Source: Vicinamibacterales bacterium (GTDB lineage: Bacteria > Acidobacteriota > Vicinamibacteria > Vicinamibacterales > 2-12-FULL-66-21). Taken from it: a stretch of 64,000 nucleotides of DNA. Both the position numbers and the translations under genes were made by a program. The stretch's first letter is position 1; every line of letters starts with the position of its first letter. Where the stretch lies: assembly GCA_036257535.1 (NCBI GenBank), contig DATAFJ010000027.1, forward strand, positions 20,636-84,635. The letters are read 5' to 3'. Below, piece after piece: positions 1,971 through 51,892 of the stretch. The notes under the pieces were generated by a model. That model was not told where the DNA came from, searched no databases, and saw nothing but the letters and a program-made list of their open reading frames with translations.

Positions 1971-2981
1971 TCAGCGATCACTCCGAGATCCCCAGCGGTC
2001 GATGTTATTGAGAATGGCGAGCGCCGTGCCCGAGAAGATCTGCTCTTTCTCTCGCGCGGGGATGTCGAGCTGTTCGATCGATGACACGGCCCGGTCGATC
2101 GATCCGAGCAAGTGGGGATAGTCGCTGCCCATGGCCATGTGATCGGCGCCGACGAGATCGCGCGCATGCCGGAGGTTGTACGGGCTGAACGTGACCGTGT
2201 CGTAGTAGAGCCGCTTGAGATACACGCTCGGCGGCGCGTCTATCTTCACCCTGCACTCCGCGAAGTCCCGGTACCCGCTGTCCAGCCGTTCCATCAGCCA
2301 CGGAATCGCACCGCCAAGATGGCCGATGAGCCACCGGATGTCCGGAAGCTCGCGAAACAGGCCGTCAAAGCACATGCGCGCCACCGCGAGCGTCGTGTCG
2401 AACGGAAATCCAACCAGCGGCCCGAGCACGTACTCGCCGAAGGGAGCGGAGTGGGCAGGCAGCATCGGATGCAGGAAGATGCAGAGACCCATCCGATTCG
2501 CTTCTTCGAAGAACGGCCGGTACACGGGCGACGTCAGCGCACGCCCGCGAATGTTGCTCAAGAGGACCACGCCGTTCATCCGCAGATCGTCGATGGCCCG
2601 GTGCAGCTCCAGGAGGGCCGCGTCAGGATCGTCCATGGGAATCGACGCGAAGCCTTTGAATCGACCGGGATGACGCGCGATGAGATCGGCATAGGCGTCG
2701 TTGACTTCACGCGCCACCGCCGCCTGGCGGTCCGCTTCCGCAAAAAACACGTTCGGCGTCGACAGGGAAATGACCTCGACGTCGATGCCGACGCGATCCA
2801 TGTCGGCGAGCCGCTTGTCCGGGTCGGTCATCGGCGGCGTGATGCCGAAGAACCGCGCCCCGCCGTACGTGATAATCGTGCGACCCGTCGGATCAGTGGT
2901 GAAAGAGAAATCCCGGCCGTGCTCCTTGATGCGATCGAAGAACGCGGCCGGGTAATAGTGGGTATGAAGGTCGTACTTCAA
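1971..2981 (-). CDS. Amidohydrolase family 2 (ACMSD-like metal-dependent hydrolase)
   Basis: ORF 1971..3050. KYDLHTHYYP (HxH metal site), HLGGAIPWLMERLD, MGSDYPH. The first 23 tracked codons are read out of a heptamer array, so I place the start at TTG 2981 (MKYDLHTH...). Confidence 0.85.
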   Translation of the reverse strand: MKYDLHTHYYPAAFFDRIKEHGRDFSFTTDPTGRTIITYGGARFFGITPPMTDPDKRLADMDRVGIDVEVISLSTPNVFFAEADRQAAVAREVNDAYADLIARHPGRFKGFASIPMDDPDAALLELHRAIDDLRMNGVVLLSNIRGRALTSPVYRPFFEEANRMGLCIFLHPMLPAHSAPFGEYVLGPLVGFPFDTTLAVARMCFDGLFRELPDIRWLIGHLGGAIPWLMERLDSGYRDFAECRVKIDAPPSVYLKRLYYDTVTFSPYNLRHARDLVGADHMAMGSDYPHLLGSIDRAVSSIEQLDIPAREKEQIFSGTALAILNNIDRWGSRSDR

Positions 2982-3056
2982 TGCCGAATGTCCAATGCCC
3001 GATGCCCAATGCCCAGACGGAGGCCCGAAGCCCAAGGCCCCAAGCCCCAAGCCCTA
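2979..3056 (-). repeat. Heptanucleotide tandem array, 11 units, filling a stop-to-start spacer
   Basis: Sense (minus) strand: TAGGGCT TGGGGCT TGGGGCC TTGGGCT TCGGGCC TCCGTCT GGGCATT GGGCATC GGGCATT GGACATT CGGCATT G. It runs from stop TAG (3056-3054) to the TTG start (2981-2979). Confidence 0.9.
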
Positions 3057-11799: not shown

Positions 11800-11886
11800 C
11801 ATGCTGACTGCTGACTGCGGAATGCTGAACGGGGAAGCAGCATCCAGCTCCACACTCAGCAATCCACATTCAGCAGTCAGCAGGGT
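11800..11886. repeat. Palindromic heptamer array (GAATGCT/GATTGCT family)
   Basis: Period-7 parse: ACTGCTG ACTGCGG AATGCTG AACGGGG AAGCAGC ATCCAGC TCCACAC TCAGCAA TCCACAT TCAGCAG TCAGCAG. The left arm (about 11802-11833) is an imperfect reverse complement of the right arm (about 11852-11884), starting with a 13-nt exact match TGCTGACTGCTGA. Confidence 0.8.
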
Positions 11887-15199: not shown

Positions 15200-15556
15200 A
15201 TGTGGACCAAGATGATGGGGGGCCCCCGCAAGAAAGCGCCGAAAACGATCGCGGTGATCGATCCGGACTTGTGCTTCGGGGCGTTCGCGTGCTCGATTTG
15301 TCAGGCGGCGTGTCCCGTGGCAGACTGCATCACCGAGGTCCCGGACCGCGACGGCAGAATGGTCTGCGCCGTGCGCGCCGATCTCTGCATCGGCTGCGGG
15401 CTCTGCGTCACCCTGGGAAATCCGACCGCGCCGCAGCCGCGCGACTTCGGCTGTCCGCCCGACTACGACGCGATCAACATGGTTCCGTTCGAGCAGGTCG
15501 CGAAGCTGGTCGCGGCGGAAGGGGAGACGCAGCCAGCGGAGCAGCCGTCAGCCTGA
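15200..15556 (+). CDS. 4Fe-4S dicluster ferredoxin-like protein
   Basis: Frame of ORF 15071..15556, ATG 15200. Cys clusters CSICQAACP and CIGCGLC. Confidence 0.7.
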   Translation: MWTKMMGGPRKKAPKTIAVIDPDLCFGAFACSICQAACPVADCITEVPDRDGRMVCAVRADLCIGCGLCVTLGNPTAPQPRDFGCPPDYDAINMVPFEQVAKLVAAEGETQPAEQPSA

Positions 15557-16459
15557 TCGGGCGCCGTACCGCGCGCGCCTGGCGGCCTGGTAGTAGCGCG
15601 ACGGCAGCGCGTGCCCGATTTTTTCTTCGATGAAGCTCGACGCCTCGACCAGCGCGTCGAGATCGACGCCGGTTTCGACGCCCAATCCATTCAGCATGTA
15701 GACGACATCCTCGGTTGCGACATTTCCTGTCGCGCCGGGAGCGTAGGGACATCCGCCGAGCCCGCCAGCCGACGAGTCGAACGTGCGCACGTCTCTGTCG
15801 AGCGCGACGAAGATATTAGCGAGCGCCGTGCCGCGGGTATCGTGAAAGTGCAGGGCGATTCGCTCGAGCCCCAGCGCGGGGATGAGCGCCGCAAGCGCCT
15901 CGCGTACCTGCCCGGGGTGGGCGACGCCGATCGTGTCGCTGACAGCGACTTCGAACGCCCCCATTTTCAAAAGACGCTCCGAAACGAAAATCACGCGCTC
16001 GAGCGGCACGTGTCCCTCGAACGGGCATCCGAAGGCGGTCGAGACATATCCCCGCACCCGGAGGCCGGCGTCCGTTGCGCGGCGCGCGACCTCGGCGTAC
16101 ACGGCGAGCGAATCGTCGATCGACTGGTTGATGTTCCGTCGGCTGAACGTCTCCGACGCCGCGGCAAAGATCGCGATCTCGGCTACGCCTGCGGCAATGG
16201 CGCGCTCGAGTCCGGCCGTGTTCGGCACGAGCGCCGTGTAGCGGATCCCGGGCCGTCGCGTGATCGCTGCGAAGACGTCCGCCGCGTCCGCCATCTGCGG
16301 AACCCACTTCGGGCTGACGAATGCAGACACTTCGATGACGGGCAGGCCGGCGGCGGAGAGCCGGTCGACGAAGGTAGCCTTGTCGGCCGTCCCCACGATG
16401 GCGGACTCGTTCTGCAGCCCGTCCCTGGGGCCGACCTCGACGATCGCAACGCGGGTCAC
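15548..16459 (-). CDS. hmgL: Hydroxymethylglutaryl-CoA lyase
   Basis: VAIVEVGPRDGLQNE, HFHDTRGTALAN, GLGGCPYAPGATGNVATED. GTG 16459 overlaps the upstream stop (GTGA). The tracked 403-aa ORF is extended across the BCCP gene. Confidence 0.9.
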   Translation of the reverse strand: MTRVAIVEVGPRDGLQNESAIVGTADKATFVDRLSAAGLPVIEVSAFVSPKWVPQMADAADVFAAITRRPGIRYTALVPNTAGLERAIAAGVAEIAIFAAASETFSRRNINQSIDDSLAVYAEVARRATDAGLRVRGYVSTAFGCPFEGHVPLERVIFVSERLLKMGAFEVAVSDTIGVAHPGQVREALAALIPALGLERIALHFHDTRGTALANIFVALDRDVRTFDSSAGGLGGCPYAPGATGNVATEDVVYMLNGLGVETGVDLDALVEASSFIEEKIGHALPSRYYQAARRARYGARSG

Positions 16460-16863
16460 GTCATCTCCACCAGGATCGATCCGGGCTGCACGAGCTGCCC
16501 TTCGGCGCAGCGTACTTCGGTCACTGTTCCATCCTGCGGCGCGCGAAGCGGCAGCTCCATCTTCATCGCTTCGAGAAGGATCAGCGTTTCCCCGCGGCGA
16601 ACCGTCTTCCCGGGCGCCGTGAGAATCCGGAGCACGGTGGCCGGCATCGGCGCCGACAGGTCGGTCAGCCCGCGTGAACCCCCGCGAACCTTCTCGAACC
16701 CCTTCGAACCTTTTCGAACCTTTTCGAACCTGAAGGTACGTCCATCGATGAAAACCCACGTTGCGTGCTCATCAGCGGCAACGAACGCACGGACGCGGTT
16801 CCCGTCTCGTTCCAGCAGGAGCTCGCCTGGCGCGATATCGGTAATGGTGAACTCGGCGGACAT
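16456..16863 (-). CDS. mccA: Biotin carboxyl carrier (biotinyl domain) subunit, C-terminal part of a split MccA
   Basis: Biotinylation motif EAMKME within GETLILLEAMKMELPLRAPQDGTV. The N-terminal half continues the BT domain. ATG 16863 overlaps the stop of the biotin carboxylase ORF (TGATG). Confidence 0.8.
   Translation of the reverse strand: MSAEFTITDIAPGELLLERDGNRVRAFVAADEHATWVFIDGRTFRFEKVRKGSKGFEKVRGGSRGLTDLSAPMPATVLRILTAPGKTVRRGETLILLEAMKMELPLRAPQDGTVTEVRCAEGQLVQPGSILVEMT
16671..16730. repeat. Six 10-bp units each ending CGAACC/TGAACC, inside the BCCP linker coding region
   Basis: cgcgtgaacc cccgcgaacc ttctcgaacc ccttcgaacc ttttcgaacc ttttcgaacc. On the sense strand this encodes FEKVRKGSKG FEKVRGGSRG. 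Confidence 0.85.
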
Positions 16864-18344
16864 CAGCGTCCCCACCGCTCGAGCGTCGCCCAGGGGTCTC
16901 GCTCGACGCGAGTCGCCGCAGCGGGCGGCGCCGGTGGTTTCCAGAAGCTCGCTGCAGCCTGCGCGGCGTCGGTCGGTTCCTTCGTATCGCGGAGCTCGGC
17001 GATGCGTTCTTCGACGAACGCCGTGTCGACCGTGCCCGCGCGGAATGCGGGATGGCCGAGGATTGCGCAGAGAAACGCCACGTTCGTGCGAAGCCCGAGG
17101 ATTGGATATCTCGTCAGCGCCGAAGCCGCTCGATCGATCGCAGCGTCGCGCGTTTCGGCAAACGCGATGAGCTTCGCGATGAGCGGGTCGTAATGGACGC
17201 TGATCTCGCTCCCTTCCGCGACCCCCGAATCCACCCGGATGCCGGTCCCCGACGGCTCGCGATAGAGCAGGATCCGCCCCGACTGCGGGAGAAAGTCCTC
17301 ATCGGGATCCTCGGCATAGACACGGCACTCGATCGAATGGCCGCGCTGGCTGAGCGCCTCCTGCGTCCAGGGCAACGGCGCGCCGCCGGCGACCGCAAGC
17401 TGTGCGCGGACGAGGTCCACGCCGACGACGGCTTCGGTGACGGGGTGCTCGACTTGCAGGCGGGTGTTCATTTCGAGAAAGAAGAACTGCGCCGAGTCGC
17501 CGGACCCGTCGACGAGGAACTCGACGGTGCCGGCGTTGCGGTAGCCGGCCGCGCGCGCAGCGGCAACGGCGGCGTCGCCCAGCCGCGCGCGCATTTCCGG
17601 TGTAATCCCCGGCGCCGGTGTTTCCTCGACAATCTTCTGGTGCCGGCGCTGGACGGAGCACTCGCGCTCGAAGAGATGGACAACGTGGTCGTGAGCATCG
17701 GCGAAGACCTGAACTTCGATGTGCCGCGGACGCTCGATCAGCCGTTCGACATACAGCGTGTCGTCGCCGAAGGCGGAATGCGCTTCGCGTCGCGCCGCCG
17801 GGACCGCTTCGTACGCCTCCTCGATCGTGCGGATCGCGCGCATGCCTTTCCCGCCGCCGCCTGCCGACGCTTTTACCAGAGCGGGCAGACCGACGCGCTC
17901 GATCGCGGTGACGATCCCGTTGTCTGACTGATCGGCTGGGGTGGCGCCTGGAACGACTGGCACGCCCGCGCGTTCCATCAGCCGGCGGGCGCCGATCTTC
18001 GATCCCATCCGGGCGATCACGTCGGCGGGCGGGCCGATGAACGTCAGCTTCGCATCGGCGCATGCGCCTGCCAGCGCCGGGTTCTCCGACAGAAATCCAT
18101 ATCCGGGATGCACCGCGTCGGCGCCGCTCGTCCGGGCGGCATCGACGATCTTGCGTACCGACAGATAGCTTTCACCGGCGGGCGACGGGCCGATGTGAAC
18201 GGCCCGGTCGGCCGCGCCGACGTGCGGCGCGCGGGCATCGGCCTCGGAGAACACGGCCACGCTCTCGATGCGCGCCTCGCGACACGCTCGGATGATGCGA
18301 AGCGCGATCTCGCCACGGTTTGCGACGAGCAGCCTTTGAATCAC
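16863..18344 (-). CDS. mccA: Biotin carboxylase subunit (BC + part of BT domain) of methylcrotonyl-CoA carboxylase
   Basis: RLLVANRGEIALRIIRACRE, ATP-grasp GGGGKGMR, EMNTRLQVEHPVTE. It ends before any biotinyl domain. Start placed at GTG 18344 (MIQRLLVANRGEIA); the tracked TTG 18356 lies inside the heptamer array. Confidence 0.9.
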   Translation of the reverse strand: MIQRLLVANRGEIALRIIRACREARIESVAVFSEADARAPHVGAADRAVHIGPSPAGESYLSVRKIVDAARTSGADAVHPGYGFLSENPALAGACADAKLTFIGPPADVIARMGSKIGARRLMERAGVPVVPGATPADQSDNGIVTAIERVGLPALVKASAGGGGKGMRAIRTIEEAYEAVPAARREAHSAFGDDTLYVERLIERPRHIEVQVFADAHDHVVHLFERECSVQRRHQKIVEETPAPGITPEMRARLGDAAVAAARAAGYRNAGTVEFLVDGSGDSAQFFFLEMNTRLQVEHPVTEAVVGVDLVRAQLAVAGGAPLPWTQEALSQRGHSIECRVYAEDPDEDFLPQSGRILLYREPSGTGIRVDSGVAEGSEISVHYDPLIAKLIAFAETRDAAIDRAASALTRYPILGLRTNVAFLCAILGHPAFRAGTVDTAFVEERIAELRDTKEPTDAAQAAASFWKPPAPPAAATRVERDPWATLERWGR

Positions 18345-18397
18345 GCCAGGCCCCAAGCCCTAAGCCCTAAGCCCCAAGCCCCAAGCCCCAAGCCCTA
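18345..18397 (-). repeat. Heptamer array (CTTGGGG/CTTAGGG), 6-7 units, filling the liuC-mccA spacer
   Basis: Sense (minus) strand: TAGGG CTTGGGG CTTGGGG CTTGGGG CTTAGGG CTTAGGG CTTGGGG CCTGGC GTG. It runs from stop TAG (18397-18395) to start GTG (18344-18342). Confidence 0.92.
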
Positions 18398-19156
18398 CTT
18401 CCGTTTCTCTAAGAAGGCGCGCATTCCGCGTTGGCCTTCATCAGAGACCCGCTGGCGCGCGATCGTCTCGGCCGTGATATCCATCACGGAACTGGGGCTG
18501 CGGCCCGAGATTTTGCGGATAAGGGCCTTCGCTTCGGCGACGGCACCCGGCGCGGAGCTCGCCAGTTCGGTCAGAACCGACTCGACCGCCTGATCGAGCG
18601 CCGCGGTCCCGACGACGGTGTGGACGAGCCCGATTTCACGCGCGCGCGACGCGGGAAAGCGCGCGCCGGTCAGGAAGAGCTCGCGCGCCGCCGAGACGCC
18701 GATTTTCGCGACCACGTACGGCGAAATCACCGCAGGCAGGATCCCGAGCTTGACCTCCGTGAACCCAAACGTCACGTCCTCGGCGGCGATGGCGATATCG
18801 CAGACGGCCGCGAGGCCGGCGCCGCCGCCGAGCGCGGCGCCCTGGATCCGGCCGATTAGTGGAAACGGGACTGTGTCGAGCGCTTCGAACATTCGCGCGA
18901 GAGCGGCCGCGTCGCGCAGGTTCTCCCTGTGCGAGTAGCCGATCATGCGCGACATCCACTGGAGATCGGCGCCGGCGCAGAACACCGGACCGGCGCCGGC
19001 GAGAACCGCGGCGCGGATCGTCCTGTCGTGCGACGCGCCCGTCGCCCAGTCCGCCAGCTCGGCGATCAGCGCATCGTTGAGCGCATTACGCACGTCGGGC
19101 CGGTTGAGTGTGACGAGGGTGACCCGGTTCTCGATGCGAACATCTACTAGCGCCAT
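18395..19156 (-). CDS. liuC: Enoyl-CoA hydratase family, probable methylglutaconyl-CoA hydratase
   Basis: ATG 19156: MALVDVRIENRVTLVTLNRPDVRNALN, VFCAGADL, GGGAGLAAVCD (crotonase motifs). Its position between mccB and mccA fits this role. Confidence 0.8.
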   Translation of the reverse strand: MALVDVRIENRVTLVTLNRPDVRNALNDALIAELADWATGASHDRTIRAAVLAGAGPVFCAGADLQWMSRMIGYSHRENLRDAAALARMFEALDTVPFPLIGRIQGAALGGGAGLAAVCDIAIAAEDVTFGFTEVKLGILPAVISPYVVAKIGVSAARELFLTGARFPASRAREIGLVHTVVGTAALDQAVESVLTELASSAPGAVAEAKALIRKISGRSPSSVMDITAETIARQRVSDEGQRGMRAFLEKRK

Positions 19157-19161
19157 CGTTG

Positions 19162-20769
19162 CTACATGCGGAACACACCGAACTTCGCCGGTGGGATCGG
19201 TGCGTTGAGGGCCATCGAGAGGCCCAGGGCCAGCGCCTCCCGCGTCGCCGCCGGATCCAGAATCCCGTCGTCCCACAGCCGTGCCGTCGAGTAGTACGGG
19301 GACCCTTCCTGCTCGTACTTCTCGAGGATCGGGTTGCGGATAGCCGCTTCTTCGTCCGGCGGCAGCTGACGTCCATCGCGCGCGAGCTGATCGCGCTTGA
19401 CGGTCGTCAGCACGCCGGCCGCCTGCTCGCCTCCCATGACCGAGATCCGCGCGTTGGGCCACATCCAGAGCAGCCGCGGCTCGTACGCCCGGCCGCACAT
19501 CCCGTAGTTCCCGGCGCCGAACGACCCCCCGATGATGACGGTGAACTTCGGCACGACAGAGTTGGCGACGGCATGAACCATCTTCGCGCCATCTTTCGCG
19601 ATGCCCGCGCGCTCGTACTGACGCCCGACGATGAACCCCGTGATGTTCTGCAAAAAGATCAGCGGCACCGATCTCAGGTTGCAGAGCTCGATGAAATGCG
19701 TCGCCTTGAGCGCGGACTCGGAGAAGAGAACGCCGTTGTTGGCGATGATACCCACCAGATAGCCGTGAAGACGCGCGAATCCGGTGACGAGCGTGGCGCC
19801 GTAGCGCTCCTTGAACTCGTCGAAGCGCGACCCGTCCACGACCCGCGCGATGATCTCACGGACGTCGTACGGCTTCCTGACATCGGCTTCGACGATGCCG
19901 TAGATTTCCTTCGGATCGTACCGCGGCGGTTCGGGTGCCTCGAGGTCGGCCGGAGGCGCTTTGGTCGTGTTCAGCGTGGAGACGATCGTTCGTGCGATCT
20001 CGAGCGCGTGTTCGTCGTTCTGCGCGAAGTAGTCCGCGACGCCCGACAGCCGCGTGTGCACGTCGGCGCCGCCGAGCTCCTCGGCGGTGACTTCCTCGCC
20101 GGTTGCGGCCTTTACGAGCGGCGGCCCGCCCAGGAAGATGGTCCCGGTGCCGCTGACGATGACTGTCTCGTCCGACATGGCCGGCACGTAGGCGCCGCCG
20201 GCCGTGCATGAGCCCATGACGACCGCGACCTGCGCGATACGCTCCGCGGACATCCGGGCCTGGTTGAAAAAGATTCGGCCGAAGTGATCGCGATCCGGGA
20301 ACACTTCCGCCTGCAGCGGGAGAAACGCGCCGCCGGAATCCACGAGGTACACGCACGGCAGGCGGTTCTCGAGCGCGATCTGCTGCGCTCGAACGTGCTT
20401 CTTCACCGTCAGCGGATAGTAGGTCCCGCCCTTCACGGTTGCGTCGTTCGCGACGATGACGACCTCGCGCCCCGCGACCCGTCCGACGCCCGTGACGATG
20501 CCCGCGGCTGGTGCTTCGTTGTCGTACAGATCCCAGGCCGCCAGCGGCGACAGCTCCAGAAATGGCGATCCGGGATCGAGTAGACGATCGAGCCGCTCGC
20601 GCACGGGCAGCTTGCCCTGCTCCCGATGCCGCTGCAGGTACTTCTCTCCGCCGCCCTGTCGCACAACCGCCAGGCGATCGCGGAGCTCGGCGACGAGCGT
20701 TTCCGTCCGCTGGGCATTCGATCGGAACACGTCCGAAGCTGGATCGATATGCGTCTCGAGGACGTCCAT
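19162..20769 (-). CDS. mccB: Methylcrotonyl-CoA carboxylase beta (carboxyltransferase) subunit
   Basis: ATG 20769. [55 protein letters not shown]. 535 aa. Confidence 0.9.
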
Positions 20770-21005
20770 TACCAGCCGCAGCAGTCGGTCTTGAAGCCGC
20801 AGCGCGGGCAGCGCCACACGGCGTGCATCCGGAACATCGCGCCGCCGCACCGGTCGCAGCCGACTTCGCTCGCGCTCTGCGCGGGCCTCGTCGAGACCGG
20901 GGCATGGGGCTTGGGGCTCCGGGCTTGGGGCGTCGGGCTCAGAGCTTGGGGCATCGGGCGCAGGGCCTGGGGCTTGGGGCTTGGGGGCATCGGCCGTTCA
21001 GGCAT
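20769..21005 (-). CDS. Small Cys4 zinc-ribbon protein translationally coupled to mccB (start uncertain)
   Basis: The C-terminus ...[31 protein letters not shown] carries CxxC-X12-CxxC. Stop TAA overlaps the mccB ATG (TAATG). ATG 21005 lies 6 nt after a TATAAT. The N-terminal ~45 codons are read from the heptamer array, so the coding status of that part is unclear. Confidence 0.45.
20899..20996 (+). repeat. Degenerate GGGGCTT heptamer array, ~14 units
   Basis: Plus strand: GGGGCAT GGGGCTT GGGGCTC CGGGCTT GGGGCGT CGGGCTC AGAGCTT GGGGCAT CGGGCGC AGGGCCT GGGGCTT GGGGCTT GGGGGCA TCGGCCG. Confidence 0.88.
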
Positions 21006-21094
21006 GCGGGAATTATAGATGACCGCTCCAACCGGCGCTCGGTACGTATGAATACGCTTCACAGCGCATTGAAACAAAACATTGCGTCCATAGA

Positions 21095-21121: not shown

Positions 21122-21182
21122 TACCTGACGTTCTGGACCACGATTTGCTGAGGTTGCGCCCGCGACTCTAGAAAGAACTTCT

Positions 21183-22586
21183 ATGGCTAACGGTAAGCGG
21201 AAGACCCGCGTGCTCGCGATAGATGACGAGCCGGCAATGATCGAATGGCTCAAGATCCTGCTGGAGCACGAAGGCTATGAAGTAAAGACGGCGATGATCG
21301 GCGCCCGCGGCGAAGAGCTGTTCAAGACCTGGAAGCCCGACCTCGTCGTCACCGACATGCTCCTGCCCGACGTGGATGGCCTCGAGCTGCTGCGCCGGTT
21401 CAAGCAGACGCCGCAGGAGACCGAGGTAATCGTGGTCACGGGGCACGGCAGCGTGCAGAAGGCCGTGGAGGCGACGAAGGCGGGCGCGTACGACTTCGTT
21501 GAGAAGCCGATCGATCCGGAGGAGCTGCTCGCGCGGCTTCAGCGTGCGTTCGAGCTGCGCACGCTGCGCGACGAGAACGTCGAGCTGAAGCGCCAGCTCG
21601 AAGGACGGTTCCAGTTCGGCAACATCATCGGGAAGAGCAAGAAGATGCACGAGCTGCTCGACCTGGTGGAGAGCGTCGCGGCGAGCGACGCGAACATTCT
21701 CATCCAGGGCGAGAACGGCACCGGCAAGGAGCTCATCGCCAACGCGATCCACTACAACAGCAAGCGGGCCAAGGGTCCGTTCATCAAGATCAACTGCGCC
21801 GCCATTCCCAAGGACCTCATCGAGTCGGAGCTGTTCGGCTACAAGAAGGGCGCGTTCACGGGCGCGATGTCGGACAAGGAAGGCCTCTTCGAGATGGCGG
21901 AGGGAGGCTCGCTCCTGCTCGACGAGATCGGAGAGATGCCGCCGTACCTGCAGACGAAGCTGCTCCGCGTCCTGCAGGAGCGCGAGTACCGCCCGATCGG
22001 CAGCGATCGGATCGTCCGCGTCGACTTCCGGTTGATCTGCGCGACCAATATCGATCTCGACGCCGCGCTGCGCGACGGCAAGGTCCGCGAGGACCTGTAC
22101 TTCCGCATCAACACGATCACGCTGCGCGTGCCGCCGCTGCGCGAACGGACAGAGGACATTCCGCTGCTTTGCGAGCACTTCCGCGAGAAGTACAACAAGC
22201 GCCACCAGCGCAACATGAAGGGCATCACTCCGGAGGCATACCACATCCTCATCAGGCACCGGTGGCCGGGCAACGTCCGCGAGCTCGAGAACGTCATCGA
22301 GCGGGGCGTGCTCGTCGCCAAGGGGACCGAGATCACGCCCGTCGAGCTGCCGGAAAGCCTGCGCGAGGAAAGCCGGACGCAGACGGAGTTCACGATTCCG
22401 CCGCACCGCACGCTCGCCGAGATCGAGAAAATGGCGATCGTGCAGACGCTGCACCGCACGAACTGGAATAAGCAGGAGGCGGCGCAGATCCTCGGACTGT
22501 ATCGTCCGACGCTCTACAGCAAGATGAAAAAGCACGCCATCTTGGACCCGGGGAAGGGCGCAGCGCGACAGCGCGCGGAGGCGTAG
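21183..22586 (+). CDS. Sigma54-dependent response regulator (NtrC/AtoC family enhancer-binding protein)
   Basis: Receiver domain (LVVTDMLLPDVDG, FVEKP). AAA+ sigma54-interaction domain (Walker A GENGTGKE, GAFTGA loop, LLLDEIGE, RWPGNVRELEN). Fis-type HTH (NWNKQEAAQILGLYRPTLYSKMKKH). Confidence 0.93.
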   Translation: MANGKRKTRVLAIDDEPAMIEWLKILLEHEGYEVKTAMIGARGEELFKTWKPDLVVTDMLLPDVDGLELLRRFKQTPQETEVIVVTGHGSVQKAVEATKAGAYDFVEKPIDPEELLARLQRAFELRTLRDENVELKRQLEGRFQFGNIIGKSKKMHELLDLVESVAASDANILIQGENGTGKELIANAIHYNSKRAKGPFIKINCAAIPKDLIESELFGYKKGAFTGAMSDKEGLFEMAEGGSLLLDEIGEMPPYLQTKLLRVLQEREYRPIGSDRIVRVDFRLICATNIDLDAALRDGKVREDLYFRINTITLRVPPLRERTEDIPLLCEHFREKYNKRHQRNMKGITPEAYHILIRHRWPGNVRELENVIERGVLVAKGTEITPVELPESLREESRTQTEFTIPPHRTLAEIEKMAIVQTLHRTNWNKQEAAQILGLYRPTLYSKMKKHAILDPGKGAARQRAEA

Positions 22587-32940: not shown

Positions 32941-35070
32941 ATGCCGAACCGGCTCGCCAGCGAGCGCAGCCCCTACCTCCTTCAGCACGCGCAAAACCCG
33001 GTCGACTGGTATCCATGGGGTGAAGAGGCGTTCGAGAAGGCGCGACGCGACGACAAGCCGATTTTTCTATCGGTCGGTTACTCGACGTGCCACTGGTGCC
33101 ACGTCATGGAGCACGAGTCGTTCGAGTCCGCAGACATCGCCGAACGGCTCAACCGGGACTTCGTGTCGATCAAGGTCGACCGCGAGGAGCGTCCGGATGT
33201 AGATCGCGTGTACATGACGTTCGTGCAGGCCACCACGGGCGCCGGCGGCTGGCCGATGAGCGTCTGGCTGACACCGTCGCTCAAGCCCTTCTACGGCGGC
33301 ACGTACTATCCGCCCACGTCGAGGTGGGGGCGTCCGGGGTTCAGCGATGTGCTGGATGAGCTCGCGCGCGTCTGGAAGGGCGATCGCGCGCGCGTCGATA
33401 CTGTAGCCGACGATCTGCTCGCGCGGATTCAGGAGGCGACCGCTAAGAGCGGCGTCAGAACGGCGAGCGAAGTGGCCGGCCCGGACGCGATTCCCGCAGG
33501 CGTGGAGCAGTTCAGGCGCGCTTTCGACACACGGTATGGCGGATTCGGAGACGCGCCGAAGTTCCCACGGCCGTCGGAGCTGCTGTTTCTGTTGAGGGCC
33601 GGCGCCACCGAGATGGCGCTCGAGACGTTGCGGGCGATGGCGCTCGGCGGCATGCGTGACCACGTGGGCGGCGGCTTTCATCGCTACTCGGTCGACGCCG
33701 CCTGGCGCGTACCGCACTTCGAAAAGATGCTGTACGACCAGGCGCAGCTCGTGCTCGCGTATCTCGAAGCGTCACAGGCGAGTCGCACAGCTGGAGGCGC
33801 CGAAGGAAGCGCGGGCTTCTACGCGACGGTCGCCGAAGACACGCTCGACTACGTGCTCCGTGATCTGACCGACGACGCCGGCGGCTTTTACTCCGCTGAG
33901 GATGCCGATAGCGTGCCGCCGGAGCTCAGTGCGCAGGGACCGGGCGCCCCCAAGTCCGAAGGCGCGTTCTATCTCTGGACCGATGATGAGATCGGCGCGC
34001 TGCTCGGTGACGCCGCCGACATCGTACGCAAGCGGTTCGGCATCCAGAAGGGCGGAAACGCGCCTCACGACCCGCAGGGCGAGTTCACCGGCAAGAACAT
34101 CCTCTACGTCGATCAACCGATTGAAGACATCGCCATCAGGACCGGTAAGACGGCGGATGAAGTGATGAACGTTCTCGTTCGTACGCGCCCGGTGCTCTTC
34201 AACGCACGCGAGGAGCGCCCGCGGCCGCACCTCGACGACAAGATCCTGACGGCCTGGAACGGGCTGATGATTGCCGCGATCGCCCGTGCGGCGCGGACGT
34301 TCGGCAACGATCGCTATCTCAATGCGGCGCGGACGGCAGCGCGTTTCATACGGGCTTTGCTCTGGCAGGCAGAAACGGGCGGCACGCACGGGCGGCTGCT
34401 GCGACGCTTTCGCGCCGGTGAAGCGGCCATCGAAGGCTACTGCGAGGACTACGCCTGCCTGGTCTGGGGGCTCCTCGAGCTCTTTCAGGCGGATGGCGAT
34501 CCCGACTGGCTCGAGTGGGCGATTGCCGTCCAGAACGCACAGGACGCGCTGTTCTGGGACGACGCGGATGCCGGCTGGTTTACAACGTCGGGCCGCGACC
34601 CGTCGGTCCTGCTTCGGCTCAAGGAGGAGCACGACGGCGCCGAGCCGTCGCCCGGATCGATCTCGACGCTGAATCTCATCGTACTCTCGCACCTCACCGG
34701 CCGCGGCGAGCTCGCCGATCGCGCCGGGCGAACGCTGGCGCGCTATGGGCGGCGGTTCGGCGAGGCGGCGCGCGCGCTGCCGTTCATGCTCGCCGCGCTT
34801 GCCACGTGGCACGCCGGCTTCGAGCAGATCGTGATCGTCGGACAGCCGGATGCGCCTGACACGAAGGCGATGCATGAGGCTGTTGCACATCAGTACCGTC
34901 CCTATGCCGTCGTCATTCCCGTGGAGCCCGGCAGCCGCCAGGAGTCGCTCGCCCGGTTGATACCGGCGATCGGCGCGATGACGCTCCGCGACGGCCGCGC
35001 CACAGTGTACGTGTGCCGCAACTTCACGTGTGACGAGCCTGTTACTGATCCCGCTCGTCTCAGGCGTTAG
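32941..35070 (+). CDS. Thioredoxin-domain protein of the YyaL/DUF255 (SSP411-like) family
   Basis: [52 protein letters not shown], then a long alpha/alpha-barrel-like C-terminal region. 709 aa. Confidence 0.9.
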
Positions 35071-35093
35071 GCATTCGGCATTAGGCATTACAG
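35067..35093 (+). repeat. GGCATTN heptamer array filling a stop-to-start spacer
   Basis: TTAGGCA TTCGGCA TTAGGCA TTACAG then ATG. The stop TAG 35068-35070 is inside unit 1, and the next ATG is at 35094. Confidence 0.85.
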
Positions 35094-38317: not shown

Positions 38318-38401
38318 GCCGGGGTGGCGGAACTGGCAGACGCACAGGACTTAAAATCCTGGGGCCGACAGGCCGTGTGGGTTCGATCCCCACCCCCGGC
38401 A
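38318..38401 (+). tRNA. tRNA-Leu (anticodon UAA)
   Basis: Manual cloverleaf. Acceptor GCCGGGG/CCCCGGC with discriminator A. D-stem GCG/CGC. Anticodon stem CAGGA/TCCTG with loop CTTAAAA (anticodon TAA). Long variable arm GGCC..GGCC. T-arm GTGGG TTCGATC CCCAC. No encoded CCA. Confidence 0.93.
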
Positions 38402-48141: not shown

Positions 48142-48180
48142 GTCAGTGAGGAATGCTGATTGCTGAATGTTGAATGATCG
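48142..48180 (+). repeat. GAATGCT/GATTGCT heptamer element directly after the SPFH stop (left arm of the IVS-gene flank)
   Basis: After TAG 48139-48141: GTCAGTG AG GAATGCT GATTGCT GAATGTT GAATGAT CG. Confidence 0.85.
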
Positions 48181-48717: not shown

Positions 48718-48801
48718 TTGCGGGAAGCTGAATGCTGATTGTTAGTGACCGGCGTTGCTTGACCACTCAGCATTCCACACTCAGCAATCTACACTGACTC
48801 A
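48715..48801. repeat. Heptamer elements downstream of the IVS-like gene (direct partial copy plus inverted right arm)
   Basis: 48727-48745 gctGAATGCTGATTGttag repeats 12 nt of the left arm. 48766-48789 CTCAGCATTCCACACTCAGCAATC is the reverse complement of the left arm 48158-48180 (18 of the first 21 positions match by hand). The minus strand after the ypfJ-like TGA (48801-48799) reads GTCAGTGTAGATTGCTGAGTGTGGAATGCTGAG. Confidence 0.85.
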
Positions 48802-51320: not shown

Positions 51321-51851
51321 ATGCGCGCCCGGAGGCCCGTAGCGGCGGGATTTACGCTCGTCGAACTCCTCGTTGTCGTGGCAATGATCGGCGTCGTGTC
51401 GGCCATTGCGGTTCCGGCACTGCTCCGTGCCCGGATGTCCGGCAACGAGGCTTCGGCGATCGGATCGATTCGTGCGGTCAACGCGGCGGAGACGGCGTAT
51501 GCGAACTCGGCGGGGCGGGGTGGCTTCGCGGTTCTGCTCTCTACGCTCGTCACGCCGTGCGGTGCCGGGAGCGCCGGCTTCCTGTCGAGGGACCTCGCCT
51601 CCGATCCGTCAAGCAAAAGCGGTTACCGAATCACGCTCGCGGTCGGCGCGGGTGCGAACGTCGGACCGCTCGATTGCAATGGTACGGTGACGCGCACCTC
51701 CTATTACGCGACAGCGGTTCCGCTGTCGGTCGGCACGACGGGAAGGCGTGCGTTCGCGAGCAACGCCATCAACGCAATCTGGCAGAACTCCACCGGATTG
51801 CCACCGGCGGAGCCGTTCACAATCACAGCGACGACGCAGCCACTTCAATAG
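51321..51851 (+). CDS. Prepilin-type N-terminal cleavage/methylation domain protein (type IV pilin / T2SS pseudopilin-like)
   Basis: MRARRPVAAG|FTLVELLVVVAMIGVVSAIAVPALL is a class III signal with the G/FTLVE motif. ATG 51321 (tracked ATG 51303 adds 6 aa). Confidence 0.85.
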   Translation: MRARRPVAAGFTLVELLVVVAMIGVVSAIAVPALLRARMSGNEASAIGSIRAVNAAETAYANSAGRGGFAVLLSTLVTPCGAGSAGFLSRDLASDPSSKSGYRITLAVGAGANVGPLDCNGTVTRTSYYATAVPLSVGTTGRRAFASNAINAIWQNSTGLPPAEPFTITATTQPLQ

Positions 51852-51892
51852 CCCCAGGCCCCAAGCCCCAAGCCCCAGGCCCCAGGCCCAGT
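51852..51892 (-). repeat. Heptamer array (CCTGGGG/CTTGGGG) occupying the whole gap between two convergent stops
   Basis: Plus strand: TAG CCCCAGG CCCCAAG CCCCAAG CCCCAGG CCCCAGG CCCAGT TCA. The minus strand after TGA reads ACTGGG CCTGGGG CCTGGGG CTTGGGG CTTGGGG CCTGGGG. Confidence 0.92.

What the first reader, a model, noticed from the sequence alone, without database searches (positions are those of the whole stretch)
18345..18397. Telomere-like (CTTGGGG/CTTAGGG)n array inside the leucine-catabolism operon, with G-quadruplex potential on the mRNA strand
Between the liuC-like stop and the mccA start the sense strand reads TAGGG CTTGGGG CTTGGGG CTTGGGG CTTAGGG CTTAGGG CTTGGGG CCTGGC GTG. That gives seven G3-4 tracts separated by 3-4 nt loops, which satisfies the canonical G4 rule (G3+ N1-7, four times). 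The units contain the vertebrate telomere hexamer TTAGGG. The array lies within what looks like one transcription unit (mccB, liuC, mccA, hmgL; all short gaps or overlaps). An RNA G4 or slippery G-rich tract would therefore sit immediately 5' of the mccA start, with the last GGGG about 9 nt upstream where a Shine-Dalgarno would be. This could tune mccA translation or stabilise a processing site.
Basis: partly seen in the sequence, partly recalled or inferred. Interest (0 to 1): 0.7.

Follow-up and report, generated by a model that had tools for sequence, protein, structure and literature searches.

The report
Dispersed G-rich heptamer repeat array
The "telomere-like" tract is real, but it is one copy of a G-rich 7-base tandem repeat (GGGGCTT) scattered through the gaps between genes of this soil acidobacterium, a known kind of bacterial repeat of unknown function rather than a dedicated switch for the leucine-catabolism gene.

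Summary
The array is real. Seven GGGGCTT/AGGGCTT units fill the whole 50-nt gap between the liuC stop (TAG, itself part of the first unit) and the GTG start of the biotin-carboxylase gene. It is far beyond chance.

It is not unique to this spot. Three more arrays of the same unit lie in the 64-kb window. All eight period-7 arrays sit in the ~9% non-coding DNA. At least 120 metagenome contigs carry at least 3.6 exact units.

The source is a Vicinamibacterales (Acidobacteriota) MAG. At the same junction, relatives carry an ATGA stop/start overlap, a plain 14-nt spacer, 3.5-9 GGGGCTT-type units, a different heptamer, or a palindrome. Near-identical strains differ by one G/A change and two units.

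Across the family the G strand is on the mRNA in only 17 of 46 co-directional cases. Its 5' end abuts the neighbouring ORF in 44 of 59 cases, the same asymmetry published for Xanthomonas and Nostoc G-rich heptamers.

ViennaRNA predicts an RNA quadruplex for sister alleles but not for the window allele.

Verdict: a new member of the known class of G4-prone intergenic heptamer repeats. A local effect on translation is possible but unsupported. Interest is modest.

The parts
18345..18397 (-). The (GGGGCTT)n array: 7 heptamer units plus CCTGGC. It fills the whole liuC-BC gap. The first, degenerate unit contains the liuC stop codon.
   Evidence: (TRF 18346-18395, period 7, 7.1 copies).
18395..18397 (-). 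liuC stop codon TAG, fused to the first repeat unit (AAG TAG GGCTTGGGG).
   Evidence: LiuC ends EKRK* here but EKRKPxW... in relatives at or below 75% identity.
18342..18344 (-). GTG start of the biotin-carboxylase (BC) gene, 6 nt after the last GGGG.
18368..18368 (-). Polymorphic base inside unit 4 (A in the window, G in four sister contigs). The G allele gives four consecutive GGGG tracts.
18395..19156 (-). liuC-type methylglutaconyl-CoA hydratase gene (253 aa).
16863..18344 (-). Biotin carboxylase subunit gene (493 aa, BC domains only).
16456..16863 (-). BT-BCCP gene (135 aa, AMKM biotinylation motif), overlapping the BC stop (TGATG).
19162..20850 (-). mccB-type carboxyltransferase gene, first gene of the operon.
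15548..16459 (-). HMG-CoA lyase gene, last gene of the operon.
20899..20986 (+). Sister array (12.6 partly degenerate GGGGCTT units) in the divergent region between mccB and the sigma-54 regulator gene. It is C-rich on the mccB side and is an inverted copy of the junction array.
   Evidence: Absent at the orthologous site of L133.
3023..3054 (-). Sister array (4.6 units) starting right after the TAG stop (3054-3056) of a 1160-aa gene. Together with the next array it fills the gap to the downstream gene.
2979..3015 (-). Second heptamer family (GGCATTG x5) adjoining the previous array. The downstream gene's TTG start lies in its last unit.
51851..51889 (-). Sister array (5.6 units GGGGCYT) filling the 41-nt gap between two convergent genes.
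35062..35090 (+). GGCATTA-type heptamer array filling a 23-nt operon gap and supplying the upstream gene's TAG stop.
48151..48176 (+). GAATGCT heptamer array just after a stop codon.
11802..11828 (+). TGCTGAC heptamer array in a 235-nt intergenic gap.

Best explanation
The tract is one local copy of a genome-wide family of intergenic G-rich heptanucleotide simple-sequence repeats (unit GGGGCTT) in a Vicinamibacterales (Acidobacteriota) bacterium.

**Shown.**

- The family is dispersed, confined to non-coding gaps and variable in copy number.
- At this junction the array is lineage-specific.
- It fills the gap from stop to start and provides liuC's TAG.

**Inferred.**

- Arrays arise and change length by slipped-strand mispairing during replication and spread until they meet coding sequence.
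- Here, an ancestrally overlapping or very short liuC/BC junction acquired an array. This removed the last ~6 LiuC codons and uncoupled BC translation from liuC termination. BC now starts at a GTG without a canonical Shine-Dalgarno sequence, as most genes in this window do.
- Any G-quadruplex, in DNA or RNA, is a by-product of the unit's sequence. It may modulate BC translation or mRNA decay in an allele-dependent way. It is not a conserved, dedicated regulator of mccA.
For: **Real and non-random.**

**Dispersed family.**

- Four same-unit arrays lie in 64 kb, in co-directional, convergent and divergent gaps and on both strands.
- All eight period-7 arrays with at least 3.5 copies are intergenic, although ~91% of the window is coding.

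**Lineage-specific and unstable at this junction.**

- ATGA overlap in L005 and L006.
- 14-nt plain spacer in L136.
- 3.5-7 units in the clade at 87-92% identity.
- 9 units in L137.
- A different heptamer, GATTGNN, in L138.
- A 24-bp-stem palindrome in L139.
- Near-identical strains (99.96% identity) differ by a G/A change in the array, and L003 lacks two units.

**No preference for the G strand on mRNA.** 17 against 29 co-directional cases.

**Same positional asymmetry as the published class.** The 5' end of the G strand is nearer the ORF in 44 of 59 cases, p=2e-4. Arrays abut or overlap the stop codon, at -3 to +7 nt, in 22 of 33 cases. Rehm et al. 2015 (PMC4692102) reported this. Mori et al. 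2019 (PMC6344855) found heptamer tandem repeats to be the most abundant intergenic repeat across prokaryotes.

**Structure and initiation.**

- The window allele has no G4 in its minimum-energy fold, and canonical folding is unremarkable, z=+0.5.
- Only 21 of 65 genes have an SD-like motif.
Against: - Every one of the eight contigs that has a GGGGCTT-type array at this junction keeps at least four G3+ tracts and keeps the G strand on the mRNA. Selection for a quadruplex could produce this. So could common descent combined with the length an SSR needs in order to persist.
- The array has survived across a clade with 8-13% LiuC amino-acid divergence.
- The strand-specific positional asymmetry shows that the family is not placed neutrally, so some strand-dependent constraint or function exists that this explanation does not name.
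- Slippage as the generating mechanism is inferred, not shown.
- Gene orientation in the metagenome loci comes from my own codon-usage gene caller. It was checked only against JGI calls around the operon.
Confidence: 0.72

Rival explanations
1. The sense-strand array folds into an RNA G-quadruplex, or acts as a G-rich pseudo-SD, immediately 5' of the BC start. It was retained because it tunes BC (MccA) translation relative to mccB and liuC.
For: - The G4 regex is met on the mRNA strand.
- ViennaRNA with G-quadruplex energies predicts a 4-layer G4 worth about 14-18 kcal/mol for the L001, L134 and L137 alleles.
- All array-bearing relatives keep at least 4 G tracts on the sense strand.
- Engineered G4s near ribosome-binding sites modulate expression in E. 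coli (Holder & Hartig 2014, as cited in PMC4692102 and PMC8191793).
- In the family, G-rich arrays usually sit away from the next start (median 74 nt). That is what one would expect if a G-rich tract next to a start codon has an effect.
Against: - The window allele itself has no G4 in its minimum-energy fold, and L003 has none either.
- The last G tract lies 0, 3, 6, 6 and 10 nt from the start in different relatives, and unit number ranges from 3.5 to 9.
- Close relatives manage with an ATGA overlap, a plain spacer, a non-G heptamer or a hairpin.
- Family orientation is mixed, with C-rich on the mRNA more often.
- Guo & Bartel 2016, as summarised in PMC8191793, reported rG4s to be depleted and deleterious in bacteria.
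Confidence: 0.12
2. The array is an mRNA-boundary element analogous to REP/BIME hairpins. A stable structure right after a stop codon blocks 3'-to-5' exonucleases or marks a processing site. The upstream mccB-liuC segment and the downstream BC-BCCP-hmgL segment would then have different half-lives.
For: - When the G strand is on the mRNA, arrays abut the stop codon, at -3 to +7 nt in 22 of 33 cases.
- In L139 the same junction carries a perfect 24-bp-stem palindrome.
- MITE-like hairpin elements occupy other junctions of the same operon in L134, L135 and L138.
- The published class also sits within 50 nt of stops on the coding strand and is transcribed.
Against: - In more than half of co-directional cases the mRNA carries the C-rich strand, which cannot form a G4.
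- L138 carries a non-structured GATTGNN heptamer at this junction.
- The canonical fold of the window allele is no better than shuffles.
- There are no data on transcripts.
Confidence: 0.08
3. The arrays act at the DNA level. They could be G4/i-motif or protein-binding heptad sites placed against ORF ends that influence replication, transcription or local genome stability. Alternatively, a polar, enzyme-driven process could add them.
For: - There is a strand-polar asymmetry irrespective of the neighbour's orientation: 44 of 59, p=2e-4. It is also seen in Xanthomonas and Nostoc.
- The same unit recurs at many unrelated loci and in many metagenomes.
- Compound arrays of different G3N4 heptamers are common.
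- Rehm et al. report increased genomic stability around repeats.
Against: - No associated gene, mobile element or conserved flank was seen.
- Units differ between relatives: GACCGCG and 8-mers in L006, GATTGNN in L138.
- No peak at four units appears in an unselected sample.
- GC skew in the window is uninformative.
Confidence: 0.06
4. The tract is a telomere-derived or eukaryotic sequence, an assembly artefact, or coding sequence.
For: The unit variant CTTAGGG contains TTAGGG. Several metagenome contigs end in the array.
Against: - The period is 7, not 6.
- The array is internal to a bacterial operon on a contig of at least 112 kb.
- It is reproduced in five independent assemblies and in relatives.
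- The liuC and BC reading frames are defined by family profiles and end and start on either side of it.
Confidence: 0.01

Closest known systems
G-rich heptameric intergenic repeats of Xanthomonas (GGGAATC) and Nostoc (GGGGA(C/T)T), Rehm et al. 2015, PMC4692102
   Same: - Head-to-tail 7-nt units, each carrying a G3-4 tract.
- Dispersed over the genome and strongly non-coding.
- Variable in unit number between relatives at the same intergenic site.
- Often overlapping or within 50 nt of the stop on the coding strand, or just upstream of a start on the non-coding strand.
- Closer to the 5' neighbour of the G strand.
- Not linked to particular gene functions or mobile elements.
- Function unknown.
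   Different: - The unit sequence is GGGGCTT.
- The host is a different phylum (Acidobacteriota, Vicinamibacterales) with 66% GC.
- No preference for exactly four units was seen in my small unselected sample.
- Divergent and convergent gaps are also occupied here.
- G4 formation has not been measured.
Cyanobacterial STRR heptanucleotide repeats, and the general excess of intergenic heptamer tandem repeats in prokaryotes (Mrazek et al. 2007 as cited in PMC4692102; Mori et al. 2019, PMC6344855)
   Same: Period-7 tandem arrays dominate among intergenic repeats. In this window 8 arrays have period 7, against 1-2 for any other period at 3.5 copies or more.
   Different: Those reports are surveys. 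They give no unit-specific or junction-level comparison, and the units and hosts differ.
TAACTGA direct repeats of Beggiatoaceae, cyanobacteria and Bacteroidetes (MacGregor 2015, PMC4679880)
   Same: Heptamer arrays lie a few nt upstream of start codons in gaps that lack canonical ribosome-binding sites, including inside operons. The same unit is shared by many loci.
   Different: TAACTGA is A/T-rich, has no G4 potential and contains stop codons in the unit. It was proposed to be a binding site for a post-transcriptional regulator. Here orientation relative to the mRNA is mixed.
REP/BIME and MITE-like intergenic palindromes
   Same: They occupy the same niches, namely operon junctions and convergent gene ends. 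A palindrome sits at this very junction in L139, and MITE-like elements sit at neighbouring junctions in L134, L135 and L138.
   Different: The array is a direct tandem repeat with no dyad symmetry, and its canonical folding is no better than shuffles.
Eukaryotic telomeric repeats (TTAGGG)n / (TTGGGG)n
   Same: G-rich tandem units with G4 potential. The hexamer TTAGGG occurs within two units.
   Different: Period 7. Internal position in a bacterial operon. No chromosome end and no telomerase context. Both orientations occur in the same genome.
Contingency-locus SSRs (phase variation)
   Same: The unit number is not a multiple of three, and copy number is polymorphic between strains.
   Different: The array lies outside both reading frames, so unit changes shift no frame. 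The neighbouring genes are housekeeping catabolic genes. There is no promoter-spacer position.

Membership tests
G-rich heptameric intergenic SSR class (Rehm et al. 2015 type) | Tandem head-to-tail 7-nt units, each with a run of at least 3 G | tested here: met
   TRF gives period 7, 7.1 copies and 93% matches. Seven G3-4 tracts are present.
G-rich heptameric intergenic SSR class (Rehm et al. 2015 type) | Many copies dispersed in the genome, over-represented in non-coding DNA | tested here: met
   Four same-unit arrays lie in 64 kb. All 8 period-7 arrays are in the ~9% non-coding DNA. At least 120 metagenome contigs carry the unit. The whole genome was not available.
G-rich heptameric intergenic SSR class (Rehm et al. 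2015 type) | Unit number and sequence vary between close relatives at the same intergenic site | tested here: met
   5 against 7 units, plus a G/A change, among strains at or above 98.8% identity. Across relatives the range is 3.5-9 units.
G-rich heptameric intergenic SSR class (Rehm et al. 2015 type) | Position bias: at or near the stop on the coding strand, or upstream of the start on the non-coding strand, and nearer the 5' neighbour of the G strand | tested here: met
   44 of 59 arrays are nearer the 5' neighbour (p=2e-4). The stop-to-array distance is -3 to +7 nt in 22 of 33 cases. Three of the 4 window arrays abut a same-strand stop.
G-rich heptameric intergenic SSR class (Rehm et al. 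2015 type) | K+-dependent G-quadruplex formation of the repeat oligonucleotide in vitro | not testable with these tools
   Only a prediction is available. ViennaRNA with G-quadruplex energies gives a G4 in the MFE for the L001, L134 and L137 alleles, and none for the window allele or L003.
G-rich heptameric intergenic SSR class (Rehm et al. 2015 type) | Published unit sequences GGGAATC or GGGGA(C/T)T | tested here: not met
   The unit is GGGGCTT, so this is a new member rather than the same repeat.
Eukaryote-type telomere repeat | Hexameric T2AG3-type unit at a chromosome end | tested here: not met
   Period 7. The array is internal, between two genes of an operon, on a contig of at least 112 kb.
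Phase-variable contingency SSR | The repeat lies inside an ORF or a promoter spacer, so unit changes switch expression on and off | tested here: not met
   The array lies between the liuC stop and the BC start. Both frames are intact in alleles with 3.5-7 units.
REP/BIME-type extragenic palindrome | Imperfect palindrome forming a stable stem-loop | tested here: not met
   It is a direct repeat. The MFE is -28.5 kcal/mol against a shuffle mean of -29.9, z=+0.5.
Conserved cis-regulatory leader of mccA (riboswitch or attenuator-like) | Sequence or structure conserved at the orthologous site, or a match to a curated RNA family | tested here: not met
   There is no Rfam hit in the region. The junction is an ATGA overlap, a plain spacer, other repeats or arrays of variable length in relatives.
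Single transcription unit mccB-liuC-BC-BCCP-hmgL | No promoter or terminator inside the liuC-BC gap | tested here: inconclusive
   Consensus scans find no sigma-70-like promoter or intrinsic terminator in the gap. Those scans are weak for Acidobacteriota, and no transcript data were available.

The most novel reading that the evidence does not exclude
The GGGGCTT arrays, and G3N4 heptamers generally, may be functional strand-specific boundary elements placed against ORF ends. The same polarity rule is now seen in three phyla. At this junction the polymorphic array may have replaced translational coupling. It would then act as a heritable tuning knob: an rG4 that is on or off depending on one G/A base and on unit number, setting the ratio of carboxyltransferase to biotin-carboxylase subunits of methylcrotonyl-CoA carboxylase.
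Probability: 0.1. Interest if true: 0.6.

Novelty: new member of a known kind. Interest (0 to 1): 0.3.

Why it matters
For this locus the practical message is caution. A striking G4 motif next to a start codon is one instance of a genome-wide repeat, not evidence of dedicated regulation.

More broadly, intergenic heptamer repeats are the commonest tandem repeats between prokaryotic genes, and their function is still unknown (PMC6344855). This window adds a new unit in a poorly studied soil phylum. It supplies a natural allelic series at one operon junction:

- no spacer (ATGA overlap) or a plain 14-nt spacer;
- 3.5, 4, 5, 6-7, 7 and 9 GGGGCTT-type units;
- a single-base G/A change that switches a predicted 4-layer quadruplex on or off;
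- a non-G heptamer and a hairpin as alternatives.

It also independently reproduces the strand-polar placement rule reported for Xanthomonas and Nostoc. Together these make the question [quoted passage not shown] experimentally approachable.

Tried and rejected
- **Plasmid database.** A megablast of the junction found nothing.
- **Rfam.** A scan of the whole window found only a tRNA.
- **Promoters and terminators.** Sigma-70 and terminator consensus scans found nothing in the gap. Hits to a sigma-54 -24/-12 pattern were at chance level, 20 against 19 expected, so the promoter could not be placed.
- **GC skew.** It is flat and says nothing about replication direction.
- **Canonical RNA structure.** The fold of the array is no better than shuffles. 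I therefore rejected a hairpin, attenuator or terminator reading.
- **Read-through.** The liuC frame stays open through the array to a TGA that overlaps the GTG start. I considered read-through or a relic of the ancestral overlap. The frame is not kept in L003 or L134, which have different unit numbers, so I treat it as coincidence.
- **TAG preference.** Stop codons abutting arrays are TGA 9, TAG 8 and TAA 5, similar to the background.
- **Preference for four units.** This is not evident in arrays that were not selected by the search pattern, although that sample is small.
- **Literature.** Full-text searches for GGGGCTT and for 'heptanucleotide + Acidobacteria' gave nothing relevant.
- **Missing DNA.** Two look-ups returned no DNA.
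- **Taxonomy of the metagenome loci.** I did not determine it, so 'widespread' refers to contigs, not to named taxa.

Full report
**1. The observation**

On the minus strand the window reads AAG TAG GG CTTGGGG CTTGGGG CTTGGGG CTTAGGG CTTAGGG CTTGGGG CCTGGC GTG ATT CAA. TRF calls 18346-18395 as a period-7 array of 7.1 copies with 93% matches.

The TAG (18395-18397) ends a 253-aa crotonase of the methylglutaconyl-CoA hydratase type. The GTG (18344) starts a biotin carboxylase beginning MIQRLLVANRGEIA. JGI gene calls on four near-identical contigs agree with these boundaries.

The canonical G4 pattern is met on the mRNA strand. A 17-mer of the unit, allowing 3 mismatches, hits 21 times in the window against 0.13 expected.

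Two details need adjusting. 'mccA' is split into a BC gene (493 aa) and a BT-BCCP gene (135 aa, TGATG overlap). This arrangement is conserved in relatives. The last GGGG ends 6 nt before the start.

**2. It is not a one-off**

The same heptamer forms arrays at three other places.

- 3023-3054 has the G strand on the minus strand. It starts right after the TAG stop of a 1160-aa gene. A (GGCATTG)5 array follows and runs into the next gene's TTG start.
- 20899-20986 has the G strand on the plus strand, with 12.6 partly degenerate units. It lies in the divergent region between mccB and a sigma-54 activator gene.
- 51851-51889 fills the 41-nt gap between two convergent genes.

Five of the eight canonical G4 motifs in the window lie in these four arrays. 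Four further period-7 arrays with other units exist at 2979, 11802, 35062 and 48151. All eight period-7 arrays lie in the ~9% of the window that is non-coding. Three of them fill an entire operon gap from stop to start, and at 18395 and 35068 the upstream TAG stop is part of a repeat unit.

**3. Source and relatives**

The identical LiuC protein is recorded from a 'Vicinamibacterales bacterium' MAG. The nearest reference genomes are an Acidobacteria MAG and a Vicinamibacterales MAG, at 65% and 63% LiuC identity. In both, the liuC stop overlaps the BC start (ATGA) and no repeat is present.

LiuC homologues at 87-92% identity are all 253 aa and end EKRK*. Those at or below 75% identity are 257-260 aa and end EKRKPxW....

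| Locus | LiuC identity | State of the liuC-BC junction |
|---|---|---|
| L005, L006 | 65%, 63% | ATGA overlap, no repeat |
| L133 | 87% | 4 units |
| L134 | 92% | 6-7 units, running into the GTG |
| L135 | 90% | about 3.5 degenerate units, ATG start |
| L137 | 75% | 9 GGGGCTT/GGGGCCT/GGAGGCC units after a full-length LiuC |
| L138 | 75% | a different heptamer, (GATTGNN)5, with the TTG start inside the last unit |
| L136 | 73% | plain 14-nt spacer |
| L139 | 70% | 77-nt gap holding a perfect 24-bp-stem palindrome |

Four contigs 98.8-99.96% identical to the window show a G/A difference inside unit 4. This is 1 of only 5 substitutions in 16.7 kb. In L003 two units are lost.

The junction is therefore a hot spot that accepts many kinds of intergenic repeat. 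The array is young, unstable and dispensable in relatives.

**4. The family at large**

Most have 60-75% GC, and many arrays sit next to other heptamer arrays.

I trained a codon-usage gene caller on the window. It reproduces the JGI calls around the operon. I used it to classify 111 arrays.

| Context | Number of arrays |
|---|---|
| Between co-directional genes, C strand on the mRNA | 29 |
| Between co-directional genes, G strand on the mRNA | 17 |
| Convergent | 8 |
| Divergent | 6 |
| Apparently inside a called gene | 6 |

The rest had a neighbour on one side only, or none. The 17-against-29 split does not differ significantly from even (p=0.10). It clearly does not favour the G strand on RNA.

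The 5' end of the G strand lies nearer its neighbouring ORF than the 3' end does in 44 of 59 cases (p=2e-4). When that neighbour is on the same strand, the array starts -3 to +7 nt from the stop in 22 of 33 cases.

These are the features Rehm et al. 2015 described for GGGAATC in Xanthomonas and GGGGA(C/T)T in Nostoc. Those repeats are dispersed, non-coding and length-variable between relatives. They overlap or lie near stops on the coding strand, or lie upstream of starts on the non-coding strand. They are nearer the 5' neighbour, form G4s in vitro, and have no known function (PMC4692102). Mori et al. 2019 found heptamer tandem repeats to be the most abundant intergenic repeats across prokaryotes, 'with no clear clue' to function (PMC6344855). 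MacGregor 2015 described TAACTGA heptamers just upstream of starts that lack ribosome-binding sites (PMC4679880).

**5. Does it work as an RNA G4 in front of mccA?**

With G-quadruplex energies enabled, the minimum-energy fold of the window allele contains no G4 (-52.0 kcal/mol with or without). The L001 allele differs only by G instead of A at 18368 and so has four consecutive GGGG. It gains a 4-layer G4 (-67.2 against -52.2). L134 and L137 also gain one, L133 only marginally, and L003 not at all.

Canonical folding is no better than shuffles, z=+0.5. The distance from the last G tract to the start is 6, 6, 0, 10 and 3 nt in the window, L133, L134, L135 and L137 respectively. An SD-like spacing is therefore not conserved. 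Only 21 of 65 genes in the window have an SD-like motif at all.

No promoter-like or terminator-like site lies in the gap, and no Rfam family matches.

A sense-strand rG4 is thus chemically plausible for some alleles. By analogy with engineered G4s in E. coli (cited), it could depress or alter BC translation. Nothing in the comparative data indicates that this is why the array is there. Bacterial rG4s were reported to be generally depleted and deleterious (Guo & Bartel 2016, via PMC8191793).

**6. Most likely history and mechanism**

What is shown: a dispersed, non-coding, length-variable heptamer family; lineage-specific presence at this junction; the array supplying liuC's stop; and loss of the ancestral stop/start overlap.

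What is inferred:

- The array arose and changes by replication slippage.
- It expanded until limited by coding sequence, overwriting about 6 dispensable C-terminal codons of LiuC.
- BC translation now depends on de novo initiation at a GTG.
- Any quadruplex is a by-product with allele-dependent side effects.

The strand-polar placement rule remains unexplained. It implies some strand-specific constraint. For example, G-rich RNA may be tolerated after stops but not before starts, or there may be a DNA-level effect. I list this among the rivals and in the novel reading.

**7. Comparison and verdict**

The array meets every sequence-level criterion of the G-rich intergenic heptamer SSR class that I could test. 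The exception is the unit sequence itself, so I file it as a new member of a known kind, in a new phylum. In-vitro G4 formation could not be tested.

It fails the tests for a telomere repeat, a contingency locus, a REP-type palindrome and a conserved mccA leader.

The G4 potential and the operon context are correct. A dedicated regulatory role is not supported, and the telomere likeness is superficial.

Interest is modest (0.3). The locus is ordinary for its class. It does offer a natural allelic series and an independent replication of the polarity rule, and both could be used to test what intergenic heptamers do.

Noticed in passing
window 16456-18344 (also L133, L134, L136-L139, L006): The MCC alpha subunit is encoded as two genes. 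BC is 493 aa and ends ...ERWGR*. A 135-aa BT-BCCP protein starts in a TGATG overlap. The split is conserved across all Vicinamibacterales relatives examined, so it is not a frameshift error.
   Followed up: partly
window 16676-16731; L133 12402-12450; L134 ~2900-2990; L137 BCCP gene: The linker between the BT and BCCP parts is encoded by a tandem 10-nt repeat (GGTTCGAAAA x4.7, giving FEKVRKGSKGFEKVRGGSRG). Relatives have a diverged 10-nt unit (L133), a longer version (L134, +7 aa) or a 9-nt GSK-type repeat (L137). This is a hypervariable coding SSR.
   Followed up: partly
window 18346-18395 versus 20899-20986: The junction array and the array upstream of mccB are inverted copies (17 nt perfectly complementary, 40 nt at 85%) flanking mccB-liuC. 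If the upstream array lies in the 5' UTR, the two could pair within one mRNA. A TATAAT-like box at about 21011-21016 on the mccB side, conserved in L133, suggests the array may be in the UTR.
   Followed up: partly
L134 200-470; L135 4810-4995; L138 2880-2985: A MITE-like element with (CACAGAGA)n-type terminal inverted repeats and a GC-rich central hairpin is inserted at the mccB-liuC junction in L134 and L135. The window has a 5-nt gap there. The element is also at the BCCP-hmgL junction in L138.
   Followed up: no
L139 3278-3354: A perfect palindrome with a 24-bp stem (GGGGTCAGGTCTTGAATCGTGACC ... GGTCACGATTCAAGACCTGACCCC) occupies the liuC-BC gap in a relative at 70% identity. It is REP-like.
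   Followed up: no
L006 12145-12193: A heptamer array (GACCGCG/GACTGCG x7) lies inside the 3' end of the BC reading frame of the Vicinamibacterales reference MAG. It encodes a repetitive C-terminal tail (…GGPRTADRGLGTADR…).
   Followed up: partly
window 11849-11875 and 48764-48795: A 14-nt tandem repeat (TCCACACTCAGCAA / CACTCAGCAATCCA) recurs in two unrelated intergenic gaps. Each copy is near a TGCTGAC- or GAATGCT-type heptamer array. This looks like a second dispersed repeat family.
   Followed up: no
L003 (equivalent to window 20099-20120): A 22-nt deletion in mccB splits the gene into two called ORFs in this contig at 98.8% identity. The contig's last ~50 nt also carry a cluster of substitutions. 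This is either a pseudogene or an assembly problem. It slightly weakens L003 as evidence for the 2-unit deletion.
   Followed up: no
window 38318-38401: This is the only Rfam hit in the window: an 84-nt tRNA on the plus strand.
   Followed up: no
window 21183-22586 and 21134-21149: A sigma-54-dependent response regulator (AtoC/NtrC-like) is divergently transcribed from the liu operon. A weak -24/-12-like match (TGGACCACGATTTGCT) lies upstream of the regulator gene itself. Matches to this pattern are at chance level window-wide.
   Followed up: partly
L013-L132 (for example L023, L029, L031, L033, L048, L062): GGGGCTT arrays are frequently contiguous with arrays of other heptamers (GGGAGCT, GGGATGA, GGGCTAC/GGGCAAC, GCGAGGC, AGGGATT, CAGTGAGG). 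G3N4 heptamers therefore behave as a broader class with unit turnover within one array.
   Followed up: partly
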